Notes under the pieces: model-generated
Seen by the model: only the letters and a program-made list of their open reading frames with translations
The model's database searches: none
Told to the model about the DNA's origin: nothing
NCBI GenBank assembly: GCA_903887775.1
Contig: CAISRB010000011.1
Span: forward strand, 259,664-323,663
Origin: an uncultured Bacteroidales bacterium
Lineage (GTDB): Bacteria; Bacteroidota; Bacteroidia; Bacteroidales; FEN-979
Reading direction: 5' to 3'
Length of the DNA: 64,000 bases
In this document: positions 28,597-55,024 of the stretch, piece after piece
Layout: every line of letters starts with the position of its first letter
Numbering within the stretch: position 1 is the first letter of the stretch
Program-made: the position numbers and the translations under genes

Positions 28597-28600
28597 TCAG

Positions 28601-32500: not shown

Positions 32501-33042
32501 AGCATGGATGTTATAATGCTGATACGGCCCATGTCGTGGTTAACCTGCTTCCCGTTATTCCGAAATTACCGGATACTACCCTGTATGCCGATAAAACAAT
32601 ATTACTTGATGCAGGGCCAGGCGCTGATAACTACCTCTGGTCAAACGGGGATACAACCTATTATACCTCGGCAGATACTTTGCATCATGGCCTGGGTCTG
32701 CTGGAAGTTTGGGTCTATGTAACGAAGGAGGGTTGTGTTGCCACGGATACAGCCAGGATCATTTTTATTAAAAATCCGATCGGTATCAATGATATAGCTG
32801 CTGAAGACCTGTTTAAGATTTTTCCAGTTCCTTTCAATGAAAGTATAAATATAGTCATGAAAGAGAATCCGGCAACAGGCGATCAGGCAAGATTAACAGA
32901 CATGAAGGGAGAAATAATCGCTTCTGTTCAAATGGTGGAAAGGATCACGAAATTACCTGTGACAAATATTGCAAAGGGCGTTTATATATTACTCCTCAGG
33001 CATAACAACAGGGAGTATTACGTAAAGGTTGTCAGGCTCTGA
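29545..33042 (+). CDS. Large secreted protein with tandem Ig-like modules and a T9SS type A sorting domain
   Basis: 1165 aa. Signal peptide. Two ~147-aa tandem modules (GLFKDSTIC.G.SV.LTA..G..YLWST.D.TA.ITV...). C-terminus FKIFPVPFNESINIV...KGVYILLL...VKVVRL. Its start overlaps the PorP/SprF stop (ATGA). Confidence 0.7.
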   Translation: MKMKLKEKIYNILLILVLGGLMPAVAFGQNSNKRGGIGFRIDENPPVNKIHSYDSVFSIFGQKYSFAVTSYVLPLVPSYTDTLKSLAQRGIELMDNTPTHSTQFFNVLNLSELNQYINNPGVDHFNGQKVCLKYVSCDTANPHGEGYVNVFQNKVISYEPGEFHDLLSPSPYFAVYLDVPVNPLCLFYDIQAVNRSDPDTLYIKSFWDETISLTDNWHIHYHKIQNNEVVMHDTAVKILGQRSLHVFDSVNLARPYTWIQPEGPYPWINPVKLKSILGDKLNYKQSTSFITPSWFCYNEYNPQKIKQFAINSEVLNMETGTFTSTIHVIAKAIAKHYVLFDVARLANPTGGFNAYLQRMDSLLSWCTSNNIPIRTYSQWKSILYDSIPQKITNIFPQLNVDLDQDNWPDGFNYGLGGVFDQTDGVEESGNKCFRLDSLSGNNKICFVDSLAGLEKGKNLFSIWTKGLGKPGSRILCHIRFQNQLQDIYIPSDSSGWKQYTYVIYVPASTSIADFEFYGNIPDNHDIVKISGMNFRSAGFLTSTPIPLQVETANVLFPKINLNNLVLDTTYPPSSLIWTFKHNHHMRFSKDSLGMMKSSRPTSFWLGKDSVYAIARRPDMLTDSCFFRFRSDSVPSGCTGESINIAILDTITSLDYVVWTSSPYDSTMSDTTIFNPTVSPKITTHYYVKVYNLLGNIFHDSIVISRYPYPVPGLFKDSTICFGDSVVLTAHQGNHYLWSTGDSTATITVRPDTTTVYTVHVTNQGHCSADDTCTISVDKIPDVKISGLLTHYCANDTCILMQGTPWYGHFGGSPGIVGSQFCPKQARIGRDTVWYAVTTTHGCYKADTVFVNVNASPEPGLFKDSTICEGKSVILTAKGGTSYLWSTMDTTASITVSPGKDSVYSVKVTNQWDCSAGDTTTILVEKIPVVKIQGLLPQYCAIDTCYGMHGTPGNGLFGGSPGVVDSTFCPKLAGPGRDTVWYQVTTQHGCYNADTAHVVVNLLPVIPKLPDTTLYADKTILLDAGPGADNYLWSNGDTTYYTSADTLHHGLGLLEVWVYVTKEGCVATDTARIIFIKNPIGINDIAAEDLFKIFPVPFNESINIVMKENPATGDQARLTDMKGEIIASVQMVERITKLPVTNIAKGVYILLLRHNNREYYVKVVRL

Positions 33043-33043
33043 G

Positions 33044-34372
33044 CTATTGGATGGCCAGCGAATCGATGACATCGCTGAGTTCTTTCGGGCGATATGGCTT
33101 TGCAAGATATTCATCCATACCTGCTGACAGGCATTTTTCACGGTCAGTCATGATAACATGGGCTGTCACTGCAATAATTTTAACCGGAGGTTTGGCACTG
33201 GCAGGATCTTTTTTCATCTGCTCTTTCTCATAATTCCGGATCACATGGGTCGATTCTATCCCATCCATTATCGGCATTGCAATATCCATGATTATCAGGT
33301 CATATTGCGTTTCGCGAAATTTCTCAAATGCGATTTTTCCGTTTTCCGCGATTTCAACGTGGTGGCCTGACCTGCCCAGGGTAGTGGCTGCAAATTTCTG
33401 GTTAAGGATGTTATCCTCTACCAATAAAATGTTCAAAGGCCTGCTCTTCTTTATTACCTTTTGTTCCTGCTTGATGTTATTCCTGAATGCTTCTATATCG
33501 CCAACCGCATACAATAAAGTGAACCAGAAAGTCGAGCCGCTGTCTTTTTTACTGATCACTCCGATTTTACCATTCATCAGATCTATAAGATTCTTTGAGA
33601 TCGACAAACCCAGTCCGGTGCCTTCAAATTGTTTTATCAGGGGACTATCCAGCTGTGCATATTCCTTGAACAGATTTGGTTGTTCTTCTTCAGGAATTCC
33701 CACTCCGGTATCACTTACTTCAAATTTCAAGAGTACATGCCCCGGAGGAAGGCTTTGCATGGTCAGGATACTATCAGGTAAATATTCGGTAAGTCTGAGG
33801 TCATCAAGCCGGCTGGCGTCAAGGATCTCGACTGAAACTACTACAGATCCCTCAATGGTAAATTTCAATGCATTGTTTGTAAGGTTTACAAGGATCTGAT
33901 GCAAACGGACAGCATCACCGATTATACATTCCGGTACTGACGATTGTATCCTGTATGAAAGTTCTACACCTTTGCCTTTTGCCCTGAGAAATAACATCTT
34001 GATTATCTGGTGAATTTCTTCATGGAGCAGAAATGGCTTGCTTTCGAGTTTCAGCTGCCCGGCTTTGATCTTTGAGAAATCAAGAATATCATTTATTATC
34101 GCAAGCAGATTATGACTGGATATATTAATTACTTCAAGAAGTTCGCGCTGTTCCGGGCTGAGGTTGGTCTGGTCAAGGATATTGTAAATCCCGATAATAC
34201 TATTCATCGGGGTCCTGATTTCATGGCTCATATTGGCCAGAAATATTGTTTTCGTGCGTTCCGCATCGTAAGCTATTATCCTGGCTTTATCGAGATCTTT
34301 TAAAGCCCGGGTGTATTTGTTTTCAAGTTCCGTAATCTGGGACTCCAATTCCTGAATCTTCAACTCTTTCAT
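33044..34372 (-). CDS. Soluble hybrid sensor histidine kinase / response regulator (coiled coil-DHp-CA-REC)
   Basis: 442 aa. Intact H-box FLANMSHEIRTPMNSIIG; N box NLTNNALKFT; G boxes DTGVGI and GTGLGLSI. Receiver with IIMDIAMPIMDG and LAKPY. No TM or sensor domain seen. Confidence 0.9.
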   Translation of the reverse strand: MKELKIQELESQITELENKYTRALKDLDKARIIAYDAERTKTIFLANMSHEIRTPMNSIIGIYNILDQTNLSPEQRELLEVINISSHNLLAIINDILDFSKIKAGQLKLESKPFLLHEEIHQIIKMLFLRAKGKGVELSYRIQSSVPECIIGDAVRLHQILVNLTNNALKFTIEGSVVVSVEILDASRLDDLRLTEYLPDSILTMQSLPPGHVLLKFEVSDTGVGIPEEEQPNLFKEYAQLDSPLIKQFEGTGLGLSISKNLIDLMNGKIGVISKKDSGSTFWFTLLYAVGDIEAFRNNIKQEQKVIKKSRPLNILLVEDNILNQKFAATTLGRSGHHVEIAENGKIAFEKFRETQYDLIIMDIAMPIMDGIESTHVIRNYEKEQMKKDPASAKPPVKIIAVTAHVIMTDREKCLSAGMDEYLAKPYRPKELSDVIDSLAIQ

Positions 34373-34376
34373 AAAA

Positions 34377-35792
34377 TCAATACTTATTCAGCTGGTTTTT
34401 CATAATTGAATATAATTGCTGCTGGTTGATCGGTTTCGAAATATAATCGTCAAACCCCGCTTCCAGAAGGGTCTCACGGTCTCCTGCCATAGCATAAGCA
34501 GTTTGCGCAATAAAGGGCACTGACCTGTATTGCTTCCATTTTTTTCTGATCTCCTGCATCAGCTTTATCCCGTCCCAGGGAGGAGGGAGGTTGATATCGA
34601 AGAGCATGATATCGAAAAACTTGTCTGCGGCGGCTTTCTCATTGATGATCTTCAGGGTCTCGTCCCCGTTAACAGCTGCAACAACACGGCCCATCGCCTT
34701 CGTCATTTCAGTCAGAACGAGCTTGTTCATCATATCGTCTTCAACAATAAAAATATCAAGGTCGTGAAGGCCTTTTGCTTTTTTCTTTACTTCCTGAGGA
34801 GGATGCGCTGATTCTTCCACAACTGCGACAGAAGCGCGTATATAGAGTGTAACCGTAGTCCCGATTCCTCTTTCAGAATTGATCTCAAGCGATCCCTCCA
34901 TCATTTCGAGCAGACTTTTTGCAAGAGGAAGACCTAATCCGGAACCTTTCCCTTCTTTTGAAAATCCTGTAGTATCGCTTTTGAATGGAGCCAGTAGTTC
35001 AGGTAAAAACGCGGGGTCAATTCCAACCCCTGTATCTTTGATCCTGATGGATATCAGATGGGAATCTTTATTGTAATCCGTCGAAATATTGATAAAGCCC
35101 TGCTCGGTGAACTTTATTGAATTATCCAGAACGATACTCAAAGCTTTCGAGAATCCTGTTTCATCAGCCAAACCTTCAGGAACCTCACCTGGTTTGAAAT
35201 TCAATTTCAGTTTTTTCTTATTTGCCTGAAAGAGATATACCTGTATCGTGTTAGCGACGATCACATTCAAAGCGCAGGGTACAGGTTTCAAAGTAAAGTC
35301 ATTCGACTCAACCCTGCTGATATCTATGATGTTATTTAAAAGATGGAGCAGTCTGTCACCGCTTTCGAGTACCGCATGGGCATAGTCGAAAAGTTCCTTA
35401 TTTTCCAGAACAGAAAGCTCAGCCTCAAGCAGGCTCGCAAAACCGATGATGTTATTTAAAGGGGTTCGGATCTCGGAACTCACATTGGAAAGAAAAGAGT
35501 TCAGAAGGAAATTGGCATCTTCAGCTTTTTTTAATGCTTTTTTCAACATGATATCCCGATCCCGTTTCTCTTCATATTCCTCTTTTATAGCCATCATCCG
35601 GGTATTCACCTGCTTATCTACCTGCTGTTCATACTCTCTGATCTTTTCAGAGGCTTTGCTCAGTTCTTCTTCTTTCTCTTTCAGCAATATGATGTGTTTT
35701 GATGTATGTTGTCTGAATCTCAGAAATAAAAATGATGACAGGATCATCAGTAACAGTATCATCAAAATAAGGAAAACGCTCAGAGTAGTCAT
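34377..35792 (-). CDS. Membrane-anchored hybrid histidine-kinase-like protein with Ser in place of the phospho-accepting His
   Basis: Start set at MTTLSVFLILMILLL (35792), just after the stop of the upstream gene. The H-box reads FLSNVSSEIRTPLNNIIG (codon TCC at 35475-35477). The N/G boxes (VLDNSIKFT, DTGVGID, GSGLGLPLA) and the receiver (MLFDINLP, ISKPI) are intact. Confidence 0.85.
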   Translation of the reverse strand: MTTLSVFLILMILLLMILSSFLFLRFRQHTSKHIILLKEKEEELSKASEKIREYEQQVDKQVNTRMMAIKEEYEEKRDRDIMLKKALKKAEDANFLLNSFLSNVSSEIRTPLNNIIGFASLLEAELSVLENKELFDYAHAVLESGDRLLHLLNNIIDISRVESNDFTLKPVPCALNVIVANTIQVYLFQANKKKLKLNFKPGEVPEGLADETGFSKALSIVLDNSIKFTEQGFINISTDYNKDSHLISIRIKDTGVGIDPAFLPELLAPFKSDTTGFSKEGKGSGLGLPLAKSLLEMMEGSLEINSERGIGTTVTLYIRASVAVVEESAHPPQEVKKKAKGLHDLDIFIVEDDMMNKLVLTEMTKAMGRVVAAVNGDETLKIINEKAAADKFFDIMLFDINLPPPWDGIKLMQEIRKKWKQYRSVPFIAQTAYAMAGDRETLLEAGFDDYISKPINQQQLYSIMKNQLNKY

Positions 35793-35800
35793 ACCGGGAG

Positions 35801-36607
35801 TTATTTGTAAGCAATAAACAGATCTTCCAGTGGATTGATCGCAAATCTGTCCAGTTCCAAAGGCCAATTGTCTTTATAAGGGTTAAAACGTTTCACAACA
35901 AAACCACTGTACTCTAACCTGCCGGGGTAATCCTGTCCATAAATCCGGACATGATCAAACTGGCCGTATATTTTTTCCCTTTCTTCAGCTGTTGTCACTG
36001 AAGGATCTTCAAATGTCTTTTCAAGTATTCCGGAGATAGGAACCTGCAAAATTGCCCAGCCGCCTGGTTTAAGCACCCGGTAAAGTTCACTGATTGCTTT
36101 ATGATCGTCAGGAATATGCTCCAGGACGTGATTACAAATAACCACATCAAATGTGTTATCTTCAAACTCCAGTTTAGTGATATCAAGTACAGCGGTATTT
36201 TTATCATAATAAAATCCCTGATGATATTTCATCCCGGCCTCGTATGTAATGTTTGGAAGTTTCGAAAGCATTGCCCTGATACATCCTTCCGGAGCAATAT
36301 GAAAAACTTTAAGAGGTCCGCTGAAAATATTCGTTTTATGGCTAAGGAACAAATATATCAGCCTGTCCCTGTCCAAAGAATAACAGCGTGGACAAACATC
36401 ATTAAGCCTGTATCCTGCACCTATTATTTGCTTCTCATAAATCACCGGTAAATCAATGCCACCGGGACGGAACTTGCGGAAGGAATGATTGCAAAACGGG
36501 CAGGTATAAGCATCACCTTTGTGAATGAGAGCTGATAATTTCTGATAAATACCCCTTAATTTTGCAGCTAACCAGTAGGGGATCAGGTTTTTGAATGGAA
36601 AATTCAT
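35801..36607 (-). CDS. Class I SAM-dependent methyltransferase with an N-terminal Cys4 zinc-ribbon-like motif
   Basis: 268 aa. CPFCNHSF...CPRC, then FDVVICNHVLEHIPDDHKAISELYRVLKPGGWAILQVP (Methyltransf_11-like). Confidence 0.8.
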   Translation of the reverse strand: MNFPFKNLIPYWLAAKLRGIYQKLSALIHKGDAYTCPFCNHSFRKFRPGGIDLPVIYEKQIIGAGYRLNDVCPRCYSLDRDRLIYLFLSHKTNIFSGPLKVFHIAPEGCIRAMLSKLPNITYEAGMKYHQGFYYDKNTAVLDITKLEFEDNTFDVVICNHVLEHIPDDHKAISELYRVLKPGGWAILQVPISGILEKTFEDPSVTTAEEREKIYGQFDHVRIYGQDYPGRLEYSGFVVKRFNPYKDNWPLELDRFAINPLEDLFIAYK

Positions 36608-36610
36608 CGT

Positions 36611-38272
36611 TTATTTTTTTATTAAATCATTTCCTGATTGAAGAATGGGTATCTTTCGTGATACCGTATAAGCCTCAAACCGGAAAATACAAATATAGCA
36701 TGCTTCAGGAAGAGGGCCTAAATATTTTTCTATTTCTGTTTGCCCTGGCCCTTCTGCTGAATTGCTTATCGTTGCAATCTGAATGCCAAGCATTGAATAA
36801 AGGTCAATGTTAAGAACATTCCTTGCAGCCAGGTTTAAAGAGATCTTCAAATTCCCGTCTTTAAAAAGAATTTTAGTGATCAGCAAATCGCCGGTATTTG
36901 ATTTTTCAGGTATTTCAAGCAGTGAGGAGTCATGGCATTCATATGCGCCTATATCATATTTAACAGGCCATGGCCTGGTCCTTCCGGCAATATCTGAGTT
37001 TAATGAAAATCCGTCTATGGCTGAGCCTGTATTTACAGCGGGGGAGGAGGGCTGAAGGTCATATTTATCTTTGCCCGGATCAATGAATTTAACATCGCTG
37101 GTATCAGGAACCAACAAATTATCCTGCTGTGCGAGGGTTGTCCCTGCTGCTGTTTTAATATAGGATCCCCCGGGGTTAGCTATAATATTATCATATGCAA
37201 TACTATTTACGGCTGATGAGCTTCTGAAATCAATACCGTTTGTCAGGGGCGAAACGATAGTGTTAAATACCAGGTGATAACCTCTTCCTTCTGCAGGAGA
37301 TTGGGTGCCAATGAATATGCCGTGTTTCTGACCTGAGCCGGAAAAACTGTTACCCGGATTAACGATCAGGTTATTATAAATATAATTCCCTCCCTGTCCG
37401 AGTTCATCTATACCATCGCCTTTCCCCTCCTTAATAAAGTTTGAAAAACAATTGCAGGAAGACCCTCCTCCAAGTAGAAAACCGCTCATTTGCCCACTGA
37501 CTTCCGCCTGGCTGTCGTGAAAAATAGTATTATTATTAGTATAGCAGGCTGAGTCGGCGCAGGAAACCTGAATCCCGTCCCATCCGGTATTTTCGACCCT
37601 GTTATTGTAAACATTCAGGCCCCTGATAAAATGAGGGTAAACTACTGTGTCTTTTTGATCGCAGTGCAACGTATAACCGTAATAATAGGAATGCCCGATA
37701 TACATTCCTTCATTGGCAATTTCATGGAGGTAATTATCATGAATACTTATATTTCTCATAACAAAATTGTCCCTGGTCGACTTAAAGCTGCAATCAGGAT
37801 CTGTTTTGGCAACGATACCTGTCCAGCTTGCATTGTAAATCTCAACGCCTGCAAGCTCGATACACGTACTGAGCCCCCCTATACTCACACCGGCATTTGT
37901 CGTACTGATGATAAAACCATAGGTGTTACCTGAAGGATTTCCGATAACCCTGACCCATGAACAGGTATCAAACTTGATCCCATAACTGAAGTTACTGAAG
38001 CTCACCTGCCCCTGGTAATTCTGAACGAGAATAGGGTTTGATTCAGTCCCATGAAGGTTTCTGAGGATCAGGAACTGCCGGGAGGAGGCCGAAAGATAAA
38101 TAGTATCTCCTGGTTTCACCGCGGAGGCATTATTCCGGCCGTCAATAACCGATTTATCCGGCCCGAAAATAAATTGACTGGCCAATCCGGTAAACGGCAA
38201 CAGCAAGAGCCATGTCGTGGCCATCAGATATATATTGAAAATCCTTTTTCTCATAATCGGATTCATGATCAT
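36611..38272 (-). CDS. Secreted right-handed parallel beta-helix repeat protein (candidate glycan lyase/hydrolase/epimerase), possibly with a degenerate T9SS CTD
   Basis: 553 aa. Signal peptide. Repeated N..I.N/hydrophobic-G beta-helix rungs and a DIGAYE motif. The last ~90 aa loosely resemble a Por sorting domain. Confidence 0.65.
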   Translation of the reverse strand: MIMNPIMRKRIFNIYLMATTWLLLLPFTGLASQFIFGPDKSVIDGRNNASAVKPGDTIYLSASSRQFLILRNLHGTESNPILVQNYQGQVSFSNFSYGIKFDTCSWVRVIGNPSGNTYGFIISTTNAGVSIGGLSTCIELAGVEIYNASWTGIVAKTDPDCSFKSTRDNFVMRNISIHDNYLHEIANEGMYIGHSYYYGYTLHCDQKDTVVYPHFIRGLNVYNNRVENTGWDGIQVSCADSACYTNNNTIFHDSQAEVSGQMSGFLLGGGSSCNCFSNFIKEGKGDGIDELGQGGNYIYNNLIVNPGNSFSGSGQKHGIFIGTQSPAEGRGYHLVFNTIVSPLTNGIDFRSSSAVNSIAYDNIIANPGGSYIKTAAGTTLAQQDNLLVPDTSDVKFIDPGKDKYDLQPSSPAVNTGSAIDGFSLNSDIAGRTRPWPVKYDIGAYECHDSSLLEIPEKSNTGDLLITKILFKDGNLKISLNLAARNVLNIDLYSMLGIQIATISNSAEGPGQTEIEKYLGPLPEACYICIFRFEAYTVSRKIPILQSGNDLIKK

Positions 38273-48459: not shown

Positions 48460-49851
48460 TCAAAACTTTTTTTGCCTTATTCGTATCAACAATCCCTTGT
48501 AGAAGTCAATCCCCTCAGAGAAAATTTTCGTAAACGAGATATCTATTTCCTTTTTCAGGAAATAATATCCTATGAAAAGTCCGATAAATGCAAAAATTAT
48601 AGAAGCAAGTGCAACGAAAAGCAATATTGTAGTGACTGACCAGGAAGGGAAAAAATGATGAAGGCCAAAAACGGCGAAGATATCTCCCAGAATGTTGGCA
48701 GTTGTCATGACGACTACTTTTTGAAAGTTTTTATCGGGCCGGTTCAAACTGTCCAGGGCTACGCCGGTAAACCGGTCCAAAGGAAGAAGAACACAATAAA
48801 TAATAAAAGAGATAAGTACAAATGAGATACCGGGATATAATGTGAGATACTTATGACCACCCATGATCAGAATAAAATAGTTGTGAAAGACAAGGCTGAT
48901 GATTGCAATAAAAAAGAAAAGAAACACCAGAGGTCCTGTATATGCATAATATATTCGTTTGAATTCTTCCCTGTTGCCTTCCATACTTGCCTTTGATAAT
49001 TTAGGGAAGGCAGTTGTTGCGAAACTCAGTAAAGGGATCTCGACCAGTTCAATGTATTTCAGCGGAATAGCGTACAAAGCTACACCCAGGGGGCCAAGAA
49101 AAGCGCTGAAGGAAATGATGAAGCTGTCAGCACCTTTTAAAAGGCTTGTACCAATCCTTGTTGCCATTGAGTACCTGCCATATTTAAGGATCTCAATCAC
49201 TTTTACTTTACTTACGCGCCTGATATACTGAAGCCCGGCCCATTTTTTAATTATACAAAATATTGAGGTTGCCAGGTTAGTTGCTATATAAAGGAAAACA
49301 ACCGTCTTGACATCAATTTTAATATATAAATATGCAACAAAAAGGATCACAAGGAAAGAGCAGAGGTTAAAGAACCTGATCCAGAATATTTTCCCAAAAT
49401 CAACTTCGGCCTGGAAAATTGACCAGGCATAATTCCATGGAAGCGTAACAAGGCCGAGCAAAGGGTACCAGATAAAGAAAAGTGAATAACCACTTGCACG
49501 CAATGGCTGAGGAATCGTTAACGCCAGAGTCCATAAGATAATTGTTATTCCTGCCAGGATCACCAGGCCCACGACCCATGCAGATCCCAGGTAATATTTT
49601 TTATCTTCCGAGGTACTCCCCGAAAGATATCTGACAAGCGCTTCTTTTGTAATTCCAAAACGAAGCATATCAATGAGAGACGATGGGGTGGTAAATAATA
49701 CCCAGACACCAAAATCAGGAATGGACAGCATCCTGAGCAGAATCATATAAGAAAACAAACTGGCAAGAGCAGTGGTCAGATTGCCTGCTAAGGAAAGAAA
49801 ATTGGCATCTTTAAGGATATTAACTATCGTTCGTTTTATTCCTGCCCACAT
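48460..49851 (-). CDS. Oligosaccharide flippase (Wzx, MOP superfamily)
   Basis: 463 aa, polytopic. N-terminal NFLSLAGNLTTALASLFSYMILLRML pattern typical of polysaccharide biosynthesis (Wzx) proteins. Confidence 0.8.
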   Translation of the reverse strand: MWAGIKRTIVNILKDANFLSLAGNLTTALASLFSYMILLRMLSIPDFGVWVLFTTPSSLIDMLRFGITKEALVRYLSGSTSEDKKYYLGSAWVVGLVILAGITIILWTLALTIPQPLRASGYSLFFIWYPLLGLVTLPWNYAWSIFQAEVDFGKIFWIRFFNLCSFLVILFVAYLYIKIDVKTVVFLYIATNLATSIFCIIKKWAGLQYIRRVSKVKVIEILKYGRYSMATRIGTSLLKGADSFIISFSAFLGPLGVALYAIPLKYIELVEIPLLSFATTAFPKLSKASMEGNREEFKRIYYAYTGPLVFLFFFIAIISLVFHNYFILIMGGHKYLTLYPGISFVLISFIIYCVLLPLDRFTGVALDSLNRPDKNFQKVVVMTTANILGDIFAVFGLHHFFPSWSVTTILLFVALASIIFAFIGLFIGYYFLKKEIDISFTKIFSEGIDFYKGLLIRIRQKKF

Positions 49852-49874: not shown

Positions 49875-52565
49875 CTAAGAAATGACATTGTCCTCACGAA
49901 ATCTGAAAGTCAAAATTTTCTTGACAGTACGGCGAAATTTGGATCTTTGTTTTGGAATTTCCCCGAAAACTGAATCAAGAAACATCAATTCAACTCCGTT
50001 AAGAACAATCTGTGTAGGCTCTTTTGATAAGGACAGAAATCCATTTAAAGCTGTTTTATCAGCATCAGTCCAGGAACGGTTTGCTCTGACCACCAGCAAT
50101 GTATAATCAGACTTCTTGATAAGATCTATAGGATATGCGTTATTGATCAATGAAGGGATCTCAATAAAGATATAATCACAGGTTTCAATGTCGATATGTT
50201 CATATCCTTTAAGCAGATCCATCGTATCCTTTGTTTCAAAAAAGTTATCCTGGATAATATACTGCAGCTCGTCATCAGTAGGCGGGATCAGTTCTCCGCC
50301 AGGGAAATCTTCAGTAGGAGTGGCATTTTCTTTTAAGTAATTCAGGAACAGGGCATTTTCGCCAAAGGATCTGAACTTTCTAGTTAATTCCCTGCCAATT
50401 GTAGTCTTTCCTTCCGAATCCCGCGTACTTATAAAAAGAATGACTGCAGGTTTCTTTTCTGTACCGTCCAGGTTTTTATGTATGTTTAACTTAATATTCT
50501 GGGCAATTATTTCGACAAGCCTTGGCAGGATAAATCCGATATCCACGTTATATATTTGCTTTACGATCTTAGGATAAACTCCTGCAAGTTTAAGTTTGAT
50601 AAACCGCTCGGCTCTTTCAGGTGTTTTAATCGTGGTATCGAAAAATTCCATTGCAAGAAGGATGATAACAACCAGCAAAAATCCGAGCAAGGCAGCGGCA
50701 AGCACAAGCAACATAACTTTTGATCTTAATGGATGTAAAGGATAAAATGGTGAATCCACAATTTTCAGGTTTGTTGATAATTCATCATCCTGCTGCCTGA
50801 GTTTCGCGAGGTTCAAATCATGCAGCAGCTCAAGAAACTCACTTTCCGTAACACCGATCAGTCGTTCAAAACGTTTCTGCTGGGCTCCTAATGGTGCAAA
50901 AATTTCATAGACCTTCTGGAAATATATTTTGCGCGCTGAAAGGACTCTCAGTGCTGCTTTACTTTCTTCGTATGCCACAACATTAGTCAGCCAGGCGTTC
51001 AGCAGATCTTTTAAAGGAAGTCCTTCAACGGAATTAGTCACAAGGTACAGCTGGTCCAGGTTGTCCTTTAATGCCGCCTTGATCGATTCGACTTTCCCTT
51101 TTAAAACTGCAAGCGTTTCAATTGTAGCCGAATCATTTCCAAGATCGATCTCAAGATTGGCAATCTGCATGGTTGTGTTCGTCAGCTCATTTCTCAATCT
51201 CAGGATAGAGCTCGTATTGAGGGAAAGCTTCGCATGATTTTCAAGTTTTTTCTCAATAATTTTAATTGCGGCATCTGAAGATGCAAGGGCAATCTGTTTA
51301 TTCTGGAATTCAACATCAAGTTCTTCTTTTGTCGTAGCTATTACTTTAGTCTGCTCATAAAAGTTGATGATGTTGTTTTTTGAGTTAAAAACCAGCAGAG
51401 CCGATTCGGCTTTCTGAAGCCTTCCCATTGCATTGTCAAGCTCTCGCCTGAAATACGCAATAACAGCATCGGTCTGATTCTGCTTCAGTAATTTATATGA
51501 ACGTATGAATCCTTTAATGAGAAAAACAAGGGTTTGCTGTGCAATCCCGGGATCTGAAGTCTTATAAGACAATTTCAGCAGGTCACTACTCTGTATTCTT
51601 GTTATTTCTATAGTTGACAGGGCATTAAGGCTGTAAAAAGGGTCAGAAGTAGAATTCCACAGCTGATATATAAAATTGTAGTCATTCTGATGGCCATAAT
51701 TGATAAGCCGTTTGACCAGTTTGTCAAAAGCGGATGTATCGCCGATAGCATTGCGGATGGCAACTGTGCCGGTAGCTGTATCAAATTGGGAGTAAAAATC
51801 TGAAGGGAGCGAAGTTGAGTCCACAAGTCTCTCAGAGCCGGCAGTTCTGACAGGAGCCGGCTCAATGTTACCTGTTTCAGTCGGATATGCAGCAGGCTCA
51901 GGTACTTGTTCCGCTGCAGAGATTTTGAGTTTTTGCCCTGTAGAAATATGATTTGATCTCAGCCTGTTATAGCTCATCAGTTCACTAACAGTCATTCCAT
52001 AGGAACGTGCGATAGAGAACATGGTTTCACCCGGGGCGACTACATGGAATGATCTCCTTGAAGAAGGTGCCACATAAGCTGTTTTCTCCGAATTGATGCG
52101 GGAATCAGGCGAATTGAGTGAGGTGTCGGAGAAAGAAGTCCTTCTACCCGGGGATTTAAAAAATTTAGGGTTGGCATGTTTGGCTTTTCTGACAATATCC
52201 ATTACGTCAGGTGGAACTCTTGCAATAAGATCGTCCCAGTGTTCTTTTGATATATACCGGTCATCGTAATTATCAAGAAGAAGGTGTTGTGCAAGGAGGG
52301 AAGCCGAAACTTCTTCGAGGGTCTGACGGGAGCGGATCAGGTTTATCAGGTTATCATAGATTGTCGTTTTGAGCATGATATCAGAGAACGCTTGTTGCTG
52401 CACCGAATATCCCGATGTGACTCCTGTATAGATTGTTGCCTCCGAGACATAACTCCATTGATTCTTCCTTGTCAGGAAGAACACAATAGCTGCCAAAAGC
52501 AAGGGGACAAGTATCAGGAGTAACACATGGCGCTGCAGAATCTTGACAAAGTAGATAATCTTCAT
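49875..52565 (-). CDS. Polysaccharide co-polymerase / BY-kinase-like protein (Wzc/GumC type) with an embedded LysM domain
   Basis: 896 aa. TM1 plus a Wzz-like start. LysM FHVVAPGETMFSIARSYGMTVSELMSYNRLRSNHISTGQKLKI (aa ~173-216, nt 51918-52049). Long coiled-coil periplasmic region, then TM2. C-terminal P-loop domain ISTRDSEGKTT...YIFIEIPSL...LLVVRANRS. No C-terminal Tyr cluster. Confidence 0.75.
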   Translation of the reverse strand: MKIIYFVKILQRHVLLLILVPLLLAAIVFFLTRKNQWSYVSEATIYTGVTSGYSVQQQAFSDIMLKTTIYDNLINLIRSRQTLEEVSASLLAQHLLLDNYDDRYISKEHWDDLIARVPPDVMDIVRKAKHANPKFFKSPGRRTSFSDTSLNSPDSRINSEKTAYVAPSSRRSFHVVAPGETMFSIARSYGMTVSELMSYNRLRSNHISTGQKLKISAAEQVPEPAAYPTETGNIEPAPVRTAGSERLVDSTSLPSDFYSQFDTATGTVAIRNAIGDTSAFDKLVKRLINYGHQNDYNFIYQLWNSTSDPFYSLNALSTIEITRIQSSDLLKLSYKTSDPGIAQQTLVFLIKGFIRSYKLLKQNQTDAVIAYFRRELDNAMGRLQKAESALLVFNSKNNIINFYEQTKVIATTKEELDVEFQNKQIALASSDAAIKIIEKKLENHAKLSLNTSSILRLRNELTNTTMQIANLEIDLGNDSATIETLAVLKGKVESIKAALKDNLDQLYLVTNSVEGLPLKDLLNAWLTNVVAYEESKAALRVLSARKIYFQKVYEIFAPLGAQQKRFERLIGVTESEFLELLHDLNLAKLRQQDDELSTNLKIVDSPFYPLHPLRSKVMLLVLAAALLGFLLVVIILLAMEFFDTTIKTPERAERFIKLKLAGVYPKIVKQIYNVDIGFILPRLVEIIAQNIKLNIHKNLDGTEKKPAVILFISTRDSEGKTTIGRELTRKFRSFGENALFLNYLKENATPTEDFPGGELIPPTDDELQYIIQDNFFETKDTMDLLKGYEHIDIETCDYIFIEIPSLINNAYPIDLIKKSDYTLLVVRANRSWTDADKTALNGFLSLSKEPTQIVLNGVELMFLDSVFGEIPKQRSKFRRTVKKILTFRFREDNVIS

Positions 52566-53356
52566 TATTCTATTTTGTTGATTACGTTGAACTTAAATCC
52601 GCATAGCTCCTGAAGAATCATATAGGAGTTATAAAAAGCATTTCTTGATGTTTCGTAATTGTAAATGGCAACACGGTACATTTCCATAATATAAGCCAGG
52701 TCATACAAAGTATTCTGACCGTTTATAAATTCCTTATCGCCCATTTCCTTGTTCATTGCGCCGGCGATCACACTCTCGTTTGCATTTTTCAGAATTTTCT
52801 GATTGACGCTTAATTGATTATACTGGGTGATTATTTGCTGTCTCAGTTCAACGATCTGGTTTTCCTTCTGGGCCATTGACTTTTCAATTTCCTTCGTTGC
52901 CGTTTTGACCTGATTCTTTCTGTCCCAGAGATCTTCCATGGGGAGCCTGAGGCTTACACCGGCTATACCCCTGTAATTATTCTGGTTTGACCATTGGGGA
53001 TTCCAGTTTATTTTATCAGAGGAATTGTCGGTATAGGAATTCCAGAAATCATTCTGAATACTGGCATCAATGTAGAAGTTTCTCATCCAGAAACGGCTTG
53101 CTGTTTTGACTTTGTACCTCCATTCGGCAATGTCGGCATCATAATACTTTAATAAAGGTGCGTGGACGATGGCCGAATCGATAAGGTCTGAAAGCGGCGG
53201 AATGCGCTGTGTGATATCTTCGATGAGCGGGTTGAAATAGTATGTGGTATCTTTCTGCTGGCCAGAACACAGTAAGGGTGTTCCAAACACACAGATAAAC
53301 ACAAGGTTAAAAAACCAGTGTTTTCCTGTGAGTTCATAAGTGGCCAGAATTTTCAT
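52565..53356 (-). CDS. Secreted half-length TolC/OEP-like protein
   Basis: 263 aa. Signal peptide. LSDLIDSAIVHAPLLKYYDADIAEWRYKVKTA resembles the start of one OEP repeat, followed by a strand region and long helical heptads. Only one repeat is present. Its stop overlaps the PCP start. Confidence 0.45.
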   Translation of the reverse strand: MKILATYELTGKHWFFNLVFICVFGTPLLCSGQQKDTTYYFNPLIEDITQRIPPLSDLIDSAIVHAPLLKYYDADIAEWRYKVKTASRFWMRNFYIDASIQNDFWNSYTDNSSDKINWNPQWSNQNNYRGIAGVSLRLPMEDLWDRKNQVKTATKEIEKSMAQKENQIVELRQQIITQYNQLSVNQKILKNANESVIAGAMNKEMGDKEFINGQNTLYDLAYIMEMYRVAIYNYETSRNAFYNSYMILQELCGFKFNVINKIE

Positions 53357-54589
53357 TTAGACATTCTCCTTTTGAAATATTGCGCCGAAGGTTCTGAATA
53401 TTATTATAATGTCTCCCCAGAAGGAGTTATGTTCGGCATAATAGTTATCAAGTGCAAATCGTTCTTCTTCCGATATTGGTCCGCTTCTTCCTCTTTTTTC
53501 GACCTGCCATAAACCTGTTAACCCGGCAGCAGCCCTAAACCTGCGGCTCCATTTCTTTTTTGTCAGGGCTTCAGCTTCATTCAATGGTAACGGGCGGTTC
53601 CCGACAATAGACATATTTCCTTTAAGTACATTGATCAATTGTGGCAGTTCGTCAATGCTTGTCATACGGATTATCCTGCCGACTTTCGTAATTCTCGGAT
53701 CGTCTTTAATTTTAAGAAAAGCTTTTCTGGCGCTCCTTTGCTTGTTTGCGATTCTTTCGCACATCTGTTCGCCGTCATAATATACAAGGGGTGAACAGTA
53801 CTGGCCTTCAGGTAATTTAGCACATTCGGCGCATGTCACTTCCACCGTTTCACCAATATACTGGTTAAGATGCTCGACTTCCTTCAGCCTTTTGTCTGCA
53901 TCGGGATACATTGAGCGGAACTTGTAGAAATCAAAGATCTTGTAATTTGAACCCACACGTTTTGAAAAGTAATATACTTTTCCCTTCGATTCAAGCCTGA
54001 TCGCAATCATCGTAAGAAGCATCAATGGAGAAAGTACCAAAAGTGCTGTTGCAGCCAGGAGTATGTCAAAAGTTCTCTTGATGATCGGCGTTTTATATGC
54101 GTTAAAGCTGACATTTGTGTCTACCGATATTGTCTTATTCTCAAATTCCGATTTGAATTTCTTTAATAATTTTATCCTGTTGTAAATATTCTCAGGGTTA
54201 AGCCCCTTGTGATAGAAATCGTCAATGCCAAGCGAATAAGCATTCTTCTTCGAATTATAATCCATGAAAAAAGAAATTACCATGAACGGTGTCTTCTGGT
54301 AGAGCTTATTCAGCTTTAAACGCCTGAAAAACGAAAAAGCATTGATCCCGGGAAGAAGCAGTTCACAGATTATTGCGTCAATGGATTGCTTTTCTTCATA
54401 TTTGATGTCGAACCTGGTATCTTTATCGAGATCGAAAATTTTAAACTGATTGTCGGTCAGCCAGTATATTGCCGCAAGCGGGTTCCCCATGACCGTAACG
54501 TTAAAATAACCTGAACTACGGAACAGATCAGCCACTGACTGATCTTTGCCAATATAAAGGATATTCATAATCGGGATTTCTTTCTCCAT
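53357..54589 (-). CDS. Receiver-like domain fused to a bacterial sugar transferase (initiating phosphoglycosyl transferase)
   Basis: 410 aa. Residues ~8-145 have REC topology (ILYIGKDQ; DAIICELLLPG; PFMVISFF; GIDDFYHKG) with Glu76 at the acceptor position. Residues ~168-405 are Bac_transf-like (KRTFDILLA...KFRSM...DPRITKVG...DELPQLINVLKGNMSIVGNRP). There is an extra segment of ~35-40 aa with 4 Cys. Confidence 0.8.
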   Translation of the reverse strand: MEKEIPIMNILYIGKDQSVADLFRSSGYFNVTVMGNPLAAIYWLTDNQFKIFDLDKDTRFDIKYEEKQSIDAIICELLLPGINAFSFFRRLKLNKLYQKTPFMVISFFMDYNSKKNAYSLGIDDFYHKGLNPENIYNRIKLLKKFKSEFENKTISVDTNVSFNAYKTPIIKRTFDILLAATALLVLSPLMLLTMIAIRLESKGKVYYFSKRVGSNYKIFDFYKFRSMYPDADKRLKEVEHLNQYIGETVEVTCAECAKLPEGQYCSPLVYYDGEQMCERIANKQRSARKAFLKIKDDPRITKVGRIIRMTSIDELPQLINVLKGNMSIVGNRPLPLNEAEALTKKKWSRRFRAAAGLTGLWQVEKRGRSGPISEEERFALDNYYAEHNSFWGDIIIIFRTFGAIFQKENV

Positions 54590-54594
54590 CGGTC

Positions 54595-54996
54595 TTACTG
54601 ACTGTTTTTGCTGCCTGAGAAGGCTACGGATGTTTCAATCCGGCGTTTAACTCGTACTATCAGTTCCCTGGGATTAAATGGTTTTACAACGTAATCATCA
54701 GCTCCCATTTCAAAACATTTGATCTTATCAGCGCTTTCCTCTTTTCCCGACAGCATAACCAATGGGATTTCATCAAAAAATCCACTTTCACGAATGCGTT
54801 TGATAAACTCGAACCCGTTCATAACCGGCATTTCCACATCACAGATAATGACATCCGGCAGGTTTCCCGACTGGATATAGTATAAAGCATCCATCCCGTT
54901 ACTCAGGGTTGTCACTTCAAACTCCTTGTTAAAGGTATTTTCTATGATAAACCGGATACTCTTTTCATCGTCTATTGCGAGTATCTTTCTTTTCAT
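54595..54996 (-). CDS. Stand-alone response-regulator receiver (CheY-like), first gene of the glycan locus
   Basis: 133 aa. ILAIDDE, DVIICDVEMPVMNG, LVMLSG, DDYVVKPF: all canonical phospho-site residues are present. No output domain. Confidence 0.9.
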   Translation of the reverse strand: MKRKILAIDDEKSIRFIIENTFNKEFEVTTLSNGMDALYYIQSGNLPDVIICDVEMPVMNGFEFIKRIRESGFFDEIPLVMLSGKEESADKIKCFEMGADDYVVKPFNPRELIVRVKRRIETSVAFSGSKNSQ

Positions 54997-55016: not shown

Positions 55017-55024
55017 CAAATATA
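55017..55024 (-). promoter_or_regulatory. -7 box TATATTTG upstream of the receiver gene / glycan locus
   Basis: The reverse complement of caaatata matches TAnnTTTG, 20 nt upstream of the ATG at 54996. Confidence 0.45.

What the first reader, a model, noticed from the sequence alone, without database searches (positions are those of the whole stretch)
54140..54568. Priming sugar transferase carries an N-terminal receiver-like domain with Glu at the phospho-acceptor position
Residues ~8-145 of the 53357..54589 protein follow REC topology. The four diagnostic positions read: beta1 ILYIGKDQ, beta3 DAIICELLLPG, beta4 PFMVISFF (Ser), beta5 GIDDFYHKG (Lys). The residue aligned with the phosphorylated Asp is Glu76, and about 25 residues are inserted before beta3.

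A Glu at this site is a classic phosphomimetic or pseudo-receiver feature. The domain is fused directly to the TM helix and Bac_transf catalytic domain, and sits immediately downstream of a canonical stand-alone receiver. The fused domain may work as a docking or dimerisation partner for that receiver and so switch the first committed step of polymer synthesis.
Basis: partly seen in the sequence, partly recalled or inferred. Interest (0 to 1): 0.68.

Follow-up and report, generated by a model that had tools for sequence, protein, structure and literature searches.

The report
Dead receiver domain on sugar-priming enzyme
The enzyme that starts synthesis of a surface polysaccharide carries a receiver-type signalling domain that has lost its phosphorylation site, and across Bacteroidota such dead domains almost always come with an intact stand-alone receiver gene just upstream, which suggests the intact receiver switches the enzyme through the dead one.

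Summary
ORF 53357..54589 (-) encodes 410 aa: a receiver (REC) fold at aa 8-148, a disordered linker, and a PglC-type small monotopic phosphoglycosyl transferase (PGT). Glu76 occupies the phospho-acceptor position.

The two metal-binding acidic residues are Gly14 and Lys15, with Gly invariant in close relatives. The beta5 Lys is not conserved in the family. It is an aspartate-less pseudo-receiver.

The new result is a comparative rule. Among relatives with a degenerate fused REC, 95 of 96 informative loci have a canonical 120-135 aa stand-alone REC gene immediately upstream. This includes independent lineages whose acceptor is Gly, Ser or His. All 6 relatives with a fully canonical fused REC lack that gene.

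Both pseudo-receiver lineages keep the equivalents of PhoB D101 and R115 on the alpha4-beta5-alpha5 dimer face.

Best reading, inferred and not shown: the stand-alone receiver is the phospho-switch, and it acts on the priming enzyme by docking on the pseudo-receiver. The cluster's own hybrid kinases probably phosphorylate it. The closest precedent is EpsW/EpsZ of Myxococcus (2025). Glu itself is probably not the key feature.

I rate it a new variant of known kinds, of moderate-to-good interest.

The parts
54595..54996 (-). Stand-alone single-domain response regulator (133 aa) with a canonical DD-D-S-K quintet; proposed phospho-switch
   Evidence: Response_reg 99.2 bits. Best NCBIfam matches are OmpR/PhoB-type receivers. 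The quintet is conserved in 74-77 of 77 orthologous neighbours.
53357..54589 (-). Pseudo-receiver::small monotopic phosphoglycosyl transferase fusion (410 aa)
   Evidence: More than 100 same-length homologues. At least 597 loci in species-representative genomes.
54146..54568 (-). Pseudo-receiver domain, aa 8-148, (beta-alpha)5 fold
   Evidence: AF2 pLDDT above 90 outside the insertion. Foldseek TM 0.82-0.84 to receiver structures. Coordinates checked.
54545..54550 (-). Gly14-Lys15 at the positions of the metal-binding acidic pair (CheY D12/D13)
   Evidence: Gly in 77 of 77 loci and 105 of 143 wider representatives. The second position is never acidic in the 77 loci.
54362..54364 (-). Glu76 codon at the phospho-acceptor position
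   Evidence: Family counts: E 97, D 9, N 3, S 3 in 112 close homologues; E 68 of 77 loci; E 56 and D 46 of 143 representatives.
54383..54454 (-). Clade-specific 24-residue insertion between alpha2 and beta3 (aa 46-69), predicted disordered
   Evidence: Mean pLDDT about 58. Gapped in about 200 of 220 family members.
54176..54220 (-). beta5-alpha5 segment holding Asp124 (54218..54220) and Arg138 (54176..54178), equivalents of PhoB D101 and R115 on the alpha4-beta5-alpha5 dimer face
   Evidence: With Gly14, these are the three most conserved positions over 220 fused domains. Kept in 72 and 75 of 77 Bacteroidales-type and 54 and 54 of 55 Cytophagales-type pseudo-receivers. PhoB R115D/D101R compensation is reported in PMC4511772.
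54086..54145 (-). Flexible linker, aa 149-168
   Evidence: pLDDT below 50 at aa 152-161.
53987..54085 (-). Re-entrant membrane helix of the monotopic PGT (aa 169-201) with the Ser187-Pro188 break
   Evidence: Helix 169-201. Ser in 123 and Pro in 148 of 150 representatives. Single hydrophobic segment.
53375..54079 (-). Bac_transf catalytic domain (aa 171-405), including the Asp313-Glu314 dyad at 53648..53653
   Evidence: Pfam E 1e-58. Foldseek PglC 8e37 E 9e-13, TM 0.81. D and E present in 149 of 150.
52565..53356 (-). OEP/TolC-like 263-aa protein, conserved third gene of the cassette
   Evidence: Pfam OEP E 4e-11. Present downstream in nearly all 80 loci.
49875..52565 (-). Wzz/GNVR chain-length-determinant (PCP) protein with a LysM domain, conserved fourth gene of the cassette
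33044..35867 (-). Two hybrid histidine kinases (HisKA-HATPase_c-REC) closing the same co-directional 22-kb cluster; candidate phosphodonors for the stand-alone receiver
   Evidence: Gene order and small gaps.
55017..55024 (-). TATATTTG, matching the Bacteroidota -7 promoter consensus TAnnTTTG, 21 nt upstream of the stand-alone receiver's ATG
   Evidence: Sequence read. The consensus is from my own knowledge. No well-spaced -33 element was seen.

Best explanation
The N-terminal 150 residues are a pseudo-receiver, specifically an aspartate-less receiver. It keeps the CheY fold but can no longer be phosphorylated in the canonical way, because the metal-binding pair and the acceptor Asp are gone. 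It is fused to a catalytically intact PglC-type small monotopic phosphoglycosyl transferase. That enzyme primes a Wzx/Wzy-type polysaccharide, which the following roughly 20 kb encodes.

The phospho-sensing job has been moved to the canonical single-domain response regulator encoded 5 nt upstream. That protein is probably phosphorylated by the two hybrid histidine kinases at the end of the same cluster. When phosphorylated, it binds the enzyme through the pseudo-receiver. The most likely contact is a receiver:pseudo-receiver pairing on the alpha4-beta5-alpha5 face. Through this contact it switches the first committed step post-translationally.

Shown: the fold, the residue losses, the intact catalytic motifs, and the conserved gene pairing with its anti-correlation to canonical fusions.

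Inferred: the physical interaction, its interface, its sign (activation or inhibition), and the kinase-to-receiver link.
For: Fold and degeneracy.

The enzyme looks active. It has the Asp313-Glu314 dyad, the Ser-Pro re-entrant helix and a PglC fold match.

The cassette stand-alone REC / fusion / OEP-like / PCP is conserved in essentially all complete loci among 80 genomes. These span Bacteroidales, Marinilabiliales, Flavobacteriales and Saprospirales.

The stand-alone REC keeps D12, D13, D57, S87 and K109 in 74-77 of 77 loci. The fused domain has G 77/77 at D12, no acid at D13, E 68/77 at D57 and K in only 19/77.

Partner rule:
- Canonical fused REC: six distinct loci (L082, L084, L085 Flammeovirga, L168 Emticicia, L169 Leadbetterella, L170 Algivirga). 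None has a stand-alone REC.
- Degenerate fused REC: 76 of 77 genome loci, 14 of 14 informative metagenome loci, and 5 of 5 look-ups have one. The look-ups are two intermediates, D-H-E-S-K and E-N-E-S-K, plus Arcicella (acceptor Gly), Flectobacillus (Ser) and Dyadobacter (His).
- Naive Fisher p = 5.5e-9, computed with 13 rather than 14 metagenome loci.
- Algivirga has the same PGT-OEP-Wzz-GT-Wzy cassette but no separate receiver.

Both pseudo-receiver lineages keep the equivalents of PhoB D101 and R115 more strictly than genuine receivers do. Those residues form a dimer-interface pair in PhoB (PMC4511772).

Precedent: phosphorylated EpsW, a single-domain regulator, activates the PGT EpsZ by direct binding. 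The same paper notes receiver fusions to small monoPGTs (PMC12802240).

The cluster carries its own two hybrid kinases.
Against: There is no direct evidence of any protein-protein contact. Multimer modelling was not possible with the tools.

The model's pTM is 0.50, so the relative placement of the two domains is not defined.

The paired-locus covariation test was uninformative. In 12 of 76 pairs the stand-alone receiver lacks the R115 equivalent, and in 5 of those also the D101 equivalent, while the fused domain keeps both. A strictly symmetric cross-paired salt bridge does not predict this.

The D/R pair is also reported to stabilise beta5/alpha5 within one chain in RegX3. Its conservation could therefore be structural.

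Small monoPGTs are described as functional monomers (PMC12802240 Discussion). A dimerisation-based switch like EpsZ's may not apply.

The hybrid kinases would normally need an Hpt step, and no Hpt was found.

The association counts are not phylogenetically independent. The six canonical loci fall into perhaps four context types.
Confidence: 0.55

Rival explanations
1. The pseudo-receiver is a constitutive homodimerisation or scaffold module for the enzyme, a functional stand-in for the cytoplasmic accessory domain of large monoPGTs such as WbaP. The upstream stand-alone receiver acts on something else, for example the chain-length determinant, or serves as a phosphate sink for the hybrid kinases.
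For: D124 and R138 stay conserved even where the stand-alone receiver has lost its matching residues. That fits a fused:fused homodimer. The domain sits directly before the re-entrant helix, where WbaP has its accessory domain, and Foldseek aligns the whole model to WbaP 8t53. Many pseudo-receiver structures are dimers without phosphorylation (PMC12632262).
Against: It does not explain why the stand-alone receiver is present exactly when the fused receiver has lost its acceptor chemistry, and absent when it is canonical. This includes the otherwise identical Algivirga cassette. The two genes are 5 nt apart.
Confidence: 0.2
2. The pseudo-receiver works on the kinase side. It binds the cluster's hybrid kinase(s) as a decoy or anchor, recruiting them to the enzyme at the membrane or competing with the stand-alone receiver for phosphotransfer, without pairing with the stand-alone receiver itself.
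For: Binding competitors of this type are among the models discussed for pseudo-receivers co-encoded with a kinase and a receiver, such as CmrRST (PMC12632262). The window cluster encodes two hybrid kinases, one soluble. Arcicella and the canonical loci share a FIST plus hybrid-kinase context.
Against: The alpha1 and beta-alpha loop surface that receivers present to kinases surrounds the active site, which is the least conserved part of this domain. The conserved residues lie on beta5/alpha5 instead. Whether the kinase genes are conserved next to the cassette could not be checked beyond the flanks.
Confidence: 0.12
3. The fused domain is still a signal acceptor through non-canonical chemistry, for example modification of Glu76 or phosphorylation of Ser/Thr. 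The Glu is the functional heart of the domain, acting as a phosphomimetic lock in the active state.
For: Glu is the commonest substitute for the acceptor Asp in aspartate-less receivers and can be partly activating in some regulators (PMC4395418, PMC12632262). It is conserved in 88% of close relatives.
Against: The Thr/Ser and Lys residues that a phosphomimetic Glu would engage are not conserved. Sister lineages carry Gly, Ser, Asn or His at this position with the same partner gene and the same D/R pair. The metal site is abolished by an invariant Gly.
Confidence: 0.06
4. The domain is an evolutionary relic with no remaining function.
For: Loss of four of the five catalytic residues, and low overall sequence identity between lineages (about 20%).
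Against: The fold is retained at high confidence. It persists across at least 597 species-level genomes with specific invariant surface residues: G14, D124, R138 and L142.
Confidence: 0.03

Closest known systems
EpsW/EpsZ of Myxococcus xanthus (Schwabe et al., mBio 2025, PMC12802240)
   Same: A canonical single-domain response regulator is co-encoded with the priming phosphoglycosyl transferase of a Wzx/Wzy pathway. Regulation is proposed at the first committed step by direct protein contact. The regulator is modelled to touch the cytoplasmic accessory domain that precedes the catalytic domain.
   Different: EpsZ is a large monoPGT with a four-helix bundle and a non-receiver accessory domain, whereas this is a small monoPGT whose accessory domain is itself a dead receiver. 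Input there is the Dif chemosensory kinase, and here it is probably the hybrid kinases in the cluster. That mechanism is thought to promote dimerisation, which may not apply to small monoPGTs. Nothing has been tested experimentally here.
Aspartate-less receivers / bacterial pseudo-receivers (Maule et al. 2015, PMC4395418; J Bacteriol 2025 perspective, PMC12632262), e.g. ChxR; also plant PRRs and fungal Rim15p with Glu at the acceptor
   Same: Receiver fold, acceptor Asp replaced (Glu is the commonest replacement), second acidic residue lost, phosphorylation-independent.
   Different: Typical aspartate-less receivers keep the first acidic residue (65%) and the Lys, which pair with each other. 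Here the first acidic residue is an invariant Gly and the Lys is not conserved. The output is a membrane enzyme rather than a DNA-binding domain. A dedicated canonical receiver partner is nearly always encoded alongside.
Receiver:pseudo-receiver partnerships BldM-WhiI (Streptomyces) and CmrR/CmrT (C. difficile), as reviewed in PMC12632262
   Same: A pseudo-receiver protein is proposed or shown to act by pairing with a genuine receiver encoded in the same system.
   Different: Those are transcription factors. Here the pseudo-receiver is tethered to an enzyme, and the genuine partner has no output domain of its own.
PglC (Campylobacter) small monotopic PGT and receiver-fused small monoPGTs noted by O'Toole, Imperiali and Allen, PNAS 2021 (cited in PMC12802240; that paper was not readable here)
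   Same: Re-entrant helix with a Ser-Pro break, Asp-Glu dyad and the same fold (Foldseek TM 0.81). The existence of receiver::monoPGT fusions is already on record.
   Different: As far as the held literature shows, three points have not been reported. First, most such fusions in Bacteroidota are pseudo-receivers. Second, they pair with a stand-alone receiver. Third, canonical fusions lack that partner. The catalytic domain here also has a roughly 50-residue Cys4 insertion that PglC lacks.

Membership tests
Response regulator receiver domain (Pfam PF00072, CheY-like) | (beta-alpha)5 flavodoxin-like fold with a five-stranded parallel sheet | tested here: met
   AF2 secondary-structure order and pLDDT above 90. 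Foldseek TM 0.82-0.84 to many receiver structures.
Response regulator receiver domain (Pfam PF00072, CheY-like) | Profile score above the curated Pfam threshold | tested here: met
   34.8 bits against a cut-off of 30.2, covering profile positions 35-111 only.
Response regulator receiver domain (Pfam PF00072, CheY-like) | Phospho-acceptor Asp at the end of beta3 | tested here: not met
   Glu76.
Response regulator receiver domain (Pfam PF00072, CheY-like) | Two acidic residues after beta1 that bind Mg2+ | tested here: not met
   Gly14-Lys15, with Gly invariant in 77 of 77 loci.
Response regulator receiver domain (Pfam PF00072, CheY-like) | Conserved Thr/Ser (beta4) and Lys (beta5) | tested here: inconclusive
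   The window protein has Ser106 and Lys128. In the family these positions are not conserved: S/T in 30 of 77 and K in 19 of 77.
Pseudo-receiver / aspartate-less receiver (definitions in PMC12632262) | Recognised as a receiver by profile and fold, but lacking at least one of the five catalytic residues; lacking the acceptor Asp for the aspartate-less subset | tested here: met
   Definition quoted.
Small monotopic phosphoglycosyl transferase (PglC-like, PF02397) | Bac_transf profile match and PglC-like fold | tested here: met
   E 1e-58. PglC 8e37 E 9e-13, TM 0.81.
Small monotopic phosphoglycosyl transferase (PglC-like, PF02397) | Single re-entrant membrane helix with a Ser-Pro break, and no N-terminal transmembrane bundle | tested here: met
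   Helix 169-201 with S187-P188. There is no other genuine hydrophobic segment, since the one scored at aa 70-88 is beta3 of the receiver fold.
Small monotopic phosphoglycosyl transferase (PglC-like, PF02397) | Catalytic Asp-Glu dyad | tested here: met
   D313-E314, present in 149 of 150 representatives.
Small monotopic phosphoglycosyl transferase (PglC-like, PF02397) | Transfer of a sugar-1-phosphate to polyprenyl phosphate; substrate identity | not testable with these tools
   Needs an enzyme assay. No NCBIfam equivalog threshold was reached.
[quoted passage not shown] | Canonical single-domain receiver co-encoded with the priming PGT | tested here: met
[quoted passage not shown] | Target is a large monoPGT whose accessory domain lacks the dimerising beta-hairpin | tested here: not met
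   This is a small monoPGT with a receiver-fold accessory domain.
[quoted passage not shown] | Phosphorylation-enhanced direct interaction that raises PGT activity | not testable with these tools
   Only comparative support is available, from the partner rule.

The most novel reading that the evidence does not exclude
The stand-alone receiver and the enzyme-tethered pseudo-receiver together form a split receiver. Phosphorylation of the free half drives a receiver:pseudo-receiver heterodimer on the alpha4-beta5-alpha5 face, and that heterodimer switches a small monotopic PGT on or off. This outsourced-acceptor design would have arisen at least twice in Bacteroidota from ordinary REC::PGT fusions, once through Gly...Glu and once through Glu-Asn...Ser/Gly active-site decay. 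It would give a general, testable mechanism for how bacterial pseudo-receivers are regulated.
Probability: 0.4. Interest if true: 0.75.

Novelty: new variant of a known kind. Interest (0 to 1): 0.58.

Why it matters
Two recent threads meet here. A 2025 perspective says that how bacterial pseudo-receivers are switched "remains a mystery". [quoted passage not shown]

This locus belongs to a family present in at least about 600 species-level Bacteroidota genomes. In that family a pseudo-receiver is welded to the priming enzyme, and a genuine receiver is almost always encoded next to it. Relatives with a working fused receiver do without the extra gene. That natural contrast makes the hypothesis directly testable in cultured organisms:
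- Pseudo-receiver type: Marinifilum, Flagellimonas, Algibacter, Arcicella, Flectobacillus, Dyadobacter.
- Canonical type: Emticicia, Flammeovirga, Algivirga.

It would extend post-translational control of the first committed step of polysaccharide synthesis to small monoPGTs and to a major phylum of gut and marine bacteria.

If the link turns out to be false, the finding reduces to one more aspartate-less receiver, which is ordinary.

Tried and rejected
1. Covariation between the D/R pair of the fused domain and that of its partner over 76 paired loci. Both sides are too conserved and no compensatory pattern appeared, so the test is uninformative.

2. A metagenome scan seeded with canonical fusions, meant to enlarge the canonical sample. 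It returned mostly pseudo-receiver loci (L086-L102) and PGTs without the domain. A profile homologue search worked instead.

3. O'Toole et al. 2021 (PMC7848588), which reportedly lists receiver::monoPGT fusions, is not held. I rely on its citation in PMC12802240.

4. Modelling the receiver:pseudo-receiver complex. The structure tool takes single chains and only window or homologue sequences. I did not attempt it.

5. Origin of the stand-alone receiver. It groups with canonical fused receivers in a neighbour-joining tree, at 38% identity against 32-34% to PhoB. There is no bootstrap support and the pseudo-receivers sit on long branches, so I treat this as suggestive only.

6. Promoter. A -7 box is present, but I found no convincingly spaced -33 TTTG.

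7. I considered that the N-terminal domain might really be the CoA-binding/Rossmann-like accessory domain of WbaP-type enzymes. I rejected this because sequence profiles and fold search both place it among receivers.

8. hmmalign to the full-length profile left most N-termini of distant representatives unaligned. I replaced it with a domain-only MAFFT alignment anchored on CheY and PhoB.
Full report
**1. The observation**

The window contains a 410-aa ORF at 53357..54589 on the minus strand. Pfam assigns Bac_transf to aa 171-405 (E 1e-58). It assigns Response_reg to aa 62-140 at 34.8 bits, above the 30.2-bit gathering score, but only for the second two-thirds of the profile.

I predicted the structure from a 67-sequence family alignment (mean pLDDT 81, above 90 over the domain). 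It gives a textbook (beta-alpha)5 order, with Glu76 at the C-terminal end of beta3. Foldseek matches receiver structures at TM 0.82-0.84 and about 2 A rmsd. It matches the C-terminal half to PglC at TM 0.81. The 24-residue stretch at aa 46-69 is an insertion of low confidence, limited to the window's near relatives.

**2.

The beta1 motif does not carry the acidic pair. CheY D12 and D13 correspond to Gly14 and Lys15. The table gives the quintet positions across 77 orthologous loci.

| CheY position | Fused domain | Stand-alone receiver upstream |
|---|---|---|
| D12 | Gly 77/77 | Asp 74/77 |
| D13 | never acidic | Asp 75/77 |
| D57 (acceptor) | Glu 68, Asp 5, other 4 | Asp 76/77 |
| T87 | Ser or Thr in 30 | Ser 77/77 |
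| K109 | Lys in 19 | Lys 77/77 |

By the definitions in the 2025 perspective (PMC12632262) the fused domain is a pseudo-receiver of the aspartate-less subset. It is atypical even for that class. The 2015 survey found that aspartate-less receivers usually retain the first acidic residue and the Lys (PMC4395418).

**3. The enzyme and its setting**

The catalytic half keeps the features that I know to define small monotopic PGTs from the PglC literature:
- one re-entrant helix (aa 169-201) with a Ser187-Pro188 break;
- the Asp313-Glu314 dyad, present in 149 of 150 family representatives;
- no N-terminal transmembrane bundle.

The gene is the second of a co-directional run of about 17 genes from 54996 down to 33044, with gaps of 0-181 nt. 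In order, the run holds:
- the stand-alone receiver and the fusion;
- an OEP/TolC-like protein;
- a Wzz/GNVR chain-length protein with a LysM domain;
- a multi-span protein with a faint Wzx-like match;
- a Wzy_C protein;
- seven glycosyltransferases, one of which also carries a hexapeptide-repeat acyltransferase domain;
- a secreted-type 553-aa protein and a methyltransferase;
- two hybrid histidine kinases.

A TATATTTG box matching the Bacteroidota -7 consensus lies 21 nt before the stand-alone receiver's start.

**4. Distribution**

A homologue search found more than 100 same-length fusions down to 53% identity, all from Bacteroidota metagenome-assembled genomes where named. The best 80 include Bacteroidales, Lentimicrobiaceae, Prolixibacteraceae, Marinifilum, Draconibacterium, Flagellimonas, Algibacter, Phaeodactylibacter and Owenweeksia.

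In those loci the four-gene cassette of stand-alone receiver, fusion, OEP-like protein and chain-length protein is present in essentially every complete case.

**5. The partner rule**

A profile search of 1.8 billion representatives, clustered at 50% identity, gave 143 fusions with an N-terminal domain. The acceptor position reads Glu 56, Asp 46, Asn 12 and others. Position D12 is Gly in 105. Only four have the full canonical quintet.

A second homologue search, seeded with those four, uncovered a Cytophagales group. In it, 46 of 114 members are fully canonical. Most of the rest have lost the acceptor, and in a different way from the window's lineage: they keep Glu at D12, have Asn at D13, and carry Ser, Gly, Asn or His at the acceptor.

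Gene contexts split cleanly.

| Fused receiver type | Loci examined | With stand-alone REC upstream |
|---|---|---|
| Canonical quintet | L082, L084, L085 (Flammeovirga), L168 (Emticicia), L169 (Leadbetterella), L170 (Algivirga) | 0 of 6 |
| Degenerate, genome loci | 77 | 76 |
| Degenerate, informative metagenome loci | 14 | 14 |
| Degenerate, direct look-ups | 5 | 5 |

The five look-ups comprise two intermediates that keep Ser, Lys and one acid but already have Glu at the acceptor, plus Arcicella (Gly), Flectobacillus (Ser) and Dyadobacter (His). The stand-alone receiver in these loci is 120-135 aa and lies directly upstream.

The Algivirga locus carries the same PGT-OEP-Wzz-GT-Wzy arrangement as the window, only without the separate receiver. 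A naive Fisher test gives p = 5.5e-9 (computed with 13 metagenome loci). The loci are not phylogenetically independent. However, the rule holds across at least two independent routes of active-site decay and inside one phylum.

**6. Which surface is kept**

Over 220 fused domains the three most conserved positions are Gly14, Asp124 and Arg138. Asp124 and Arg138 align with PhoB D101 and R115. The loss of PhoB function in R115D is partly rescued by D101R, which marks them as an alpha4-beta5-alpha5 dimer-interface pair (PMC4511772).

| Group | D101 equivalent kept | R115 equivalent kept |
|---|---|---|
| Bacteroidales-type pseudo-receivers | 72/77 | 75/77 |
| Cytophagales-type pseudo-receivers | 54/55 | 54/55 |
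| Stand-alone receivers | 72/77 | 64/77 |
| Canonical fused receivers | 44/46 | 34/46 |

The pseudo-receivers keep the pair more strictly than the genuine receivers do. The stand-alone receivers are OmpR/PhoB-like by their best family matches and also carry the R91 and E111 equivalents.

**7. Mechanism**

The simplest reading is that phospho-acceptance has been handed to the free receiver. The dead, tethered receiver remains as the surface through which the free one acts on the enzyme, most likely by a receiver:pseudo-receiver pairing on the alpha4-beta5-alpha5 face. The cluster's hybrid kinases are the obvious phosphodonors.

The precedent is EpsW~P, which activates the large monoPGT EpsZ by contacting its accessory and catalytic domains. 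That paper's Discussion anticipates that receiver domains fused to small monoPGTs may be regulatory (PMC12802240). Pairing of a pseudo-receiver with a genuine receiver is known for WhiI/BldM and has been hypothesised for CmrT/CmrR (PMC12632262).

I put this reading at 0.55. The interaction, its interface, its sign and the kinase link are all inferred.

**8. Weak points and rivals**

- A paired-locus covariation test showed nothing.
- In 12 pairs the free receiver lacks the R115 equivalent while the fused domain keeps D and R. This fits a fused:fused homodimer or an intramolecular role at least as well as a heterodimer.
- The D/R pair is also reported to stabilise beta5/alpha5 within a chain.
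- Small monoPGTs are described as active monomers.
- No Hpt domain was found for the hybrid kinases.

The main rival (0.20) is a constitutive dimerisation or scaffold role, with the free receiver acting elsewhere. It fails to explain the partner rule. A kinase-side decoy or anchor role (0.12) is possible. A special phosphomimetic role for Glu76 (0.06) is weakened because sister lineages use Gly, Ser, Asn or His there with the same partner, and because the Thr and Lys that Glu would engage are not conserved. A functionless relic (0.03) is contradicted by the conservation.

**9. Origin**

Stand-alone receivers are somewhat closer to canonical fused receivers (38% identity) than either is to PhoB (32-34%). 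They group with them in a neighbour-joining tree, while both pseudo-receiver types sit on long branches. This fits duplication or fission of an ancestral REC::PGT receiver followed by decay of the tethered copy. The tree is unsupported by resampling, so I treat it only as a lead.

**10. Novelty and verdict**

Several elements are already known:
- receiver fusions to small monoPGTs (O'Toole et al. 2021, as cited; not readable here);
- Glu-type aspartate-less receivers;
- control of a PGT by a single-domain regulator.

What I did not find in the held literature is threefold. The Bacteroidota fusions are overwhelmingly pseudo-receivers. They come with a dedicated canonical receiver. Canonical fusions lack that partner. 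I therefore rate this a new variant of known kinds, with interest 0.58. The bare Glu observation is ordinary, but the family offers a clean and widespread test bed for pseudo-receiver regulation and for post-translational control of polysaccharide priming.

Noticed in passing
window 53759..53833 (-), aa 253-277 of the fusion: The catalytic domain carries a roughly 50-residue insertion relative to PglC, with four Cys (C253, C256, C265, C277) invariant in the 67-sequence alignment. Cys occupies each of these four positions in 47-67 of the 150 wider representatives. The model shows a short helix and a small hairpin at moderate confidence. It may be a metal-binding knuckle.
   Followed up: partly
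window 52565..53356 (-); L001-L080 downstream of the PGT: A short (about 250 aa) OEP/TolC-like protein always follows the PGT, including in canonical-receiver loci L084 and L170. No Wza/Poly_export gene was seen in the window cluster, so this may be the outer-membrane export component.
   Followed up: partly
window 49875..52565 (-): The chain-length-determinant protein (896 aa) has a LysM domain in its periplasmic part (aa 174-215). Its C-terminal region has a P-loop-like SEGKTT motif but no Tyr-rich tail, so any tyrosine-kinase module looks degenerate.
   Followed up: no
window 33044..35867 (-): Two adjacent hybrid histidine kinases close the polysaccharide cluster. One has a single N-terminal membrane anchor and no recognised sensor domain, and the other is soluble. 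No Hpt domain was detected in the cluster.
   Followed up: partly
window 36611..38272 (-) and 48460..49851 (-): Two cluster genes have no Pfam match. A 553-aa protein has a choice-of-anchor Q domain (NCBIfam). A 463-aa protein has at least 8 hydrophobic segments and only a faint Wzx-like match, so it is probably the flippase.
   Followed up: partly
window 27526..33042 (+): A convergent block of type IX secretion-related genes abuts the cluster: a CHU_C/PKD protein, PorP/SprF, and a 1165-aa protein with a Por_Secre_tail sorting domain.
   Followed up: no
window 55017..55024 (-): TATATTTG, a match to the Bacteroidota -7 promoter consensus, lies 21 nt upstream of the stand-alone receiver's ATG in the 104-nt gap after uvrB. 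No well-spaced -33 element was seen.
   Followed up: partly
window 54383..54454 (-), aa 46-69: A clade-specific, charged, predicted-disordered insertion between alpha2 and beta3 has Phe49 and Phe52 conserved within the clade. Its function is unknown.
   Followed up: no
P0304 versus P0349/P0351 (Emticicia); L171 versus L082, L168, L169: The genus Emticicia has both a canonical and a pseudo-receiver REC::PGT. The Arcicella pseudo-receiver locus shares a FIST plus hybrid-kinase neighbourhood with canonical loci, differing by the added stand-alone receiver. Canonical loci instead show a divergent NtrC-type regulator.
   Followed up: partly
L081 and L084: Two canonical-receiver loci carry a DUF4114/DUF4842 protein next to the PGT, which the Bacteroidales-type cassette does not have.
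   Followed up: no
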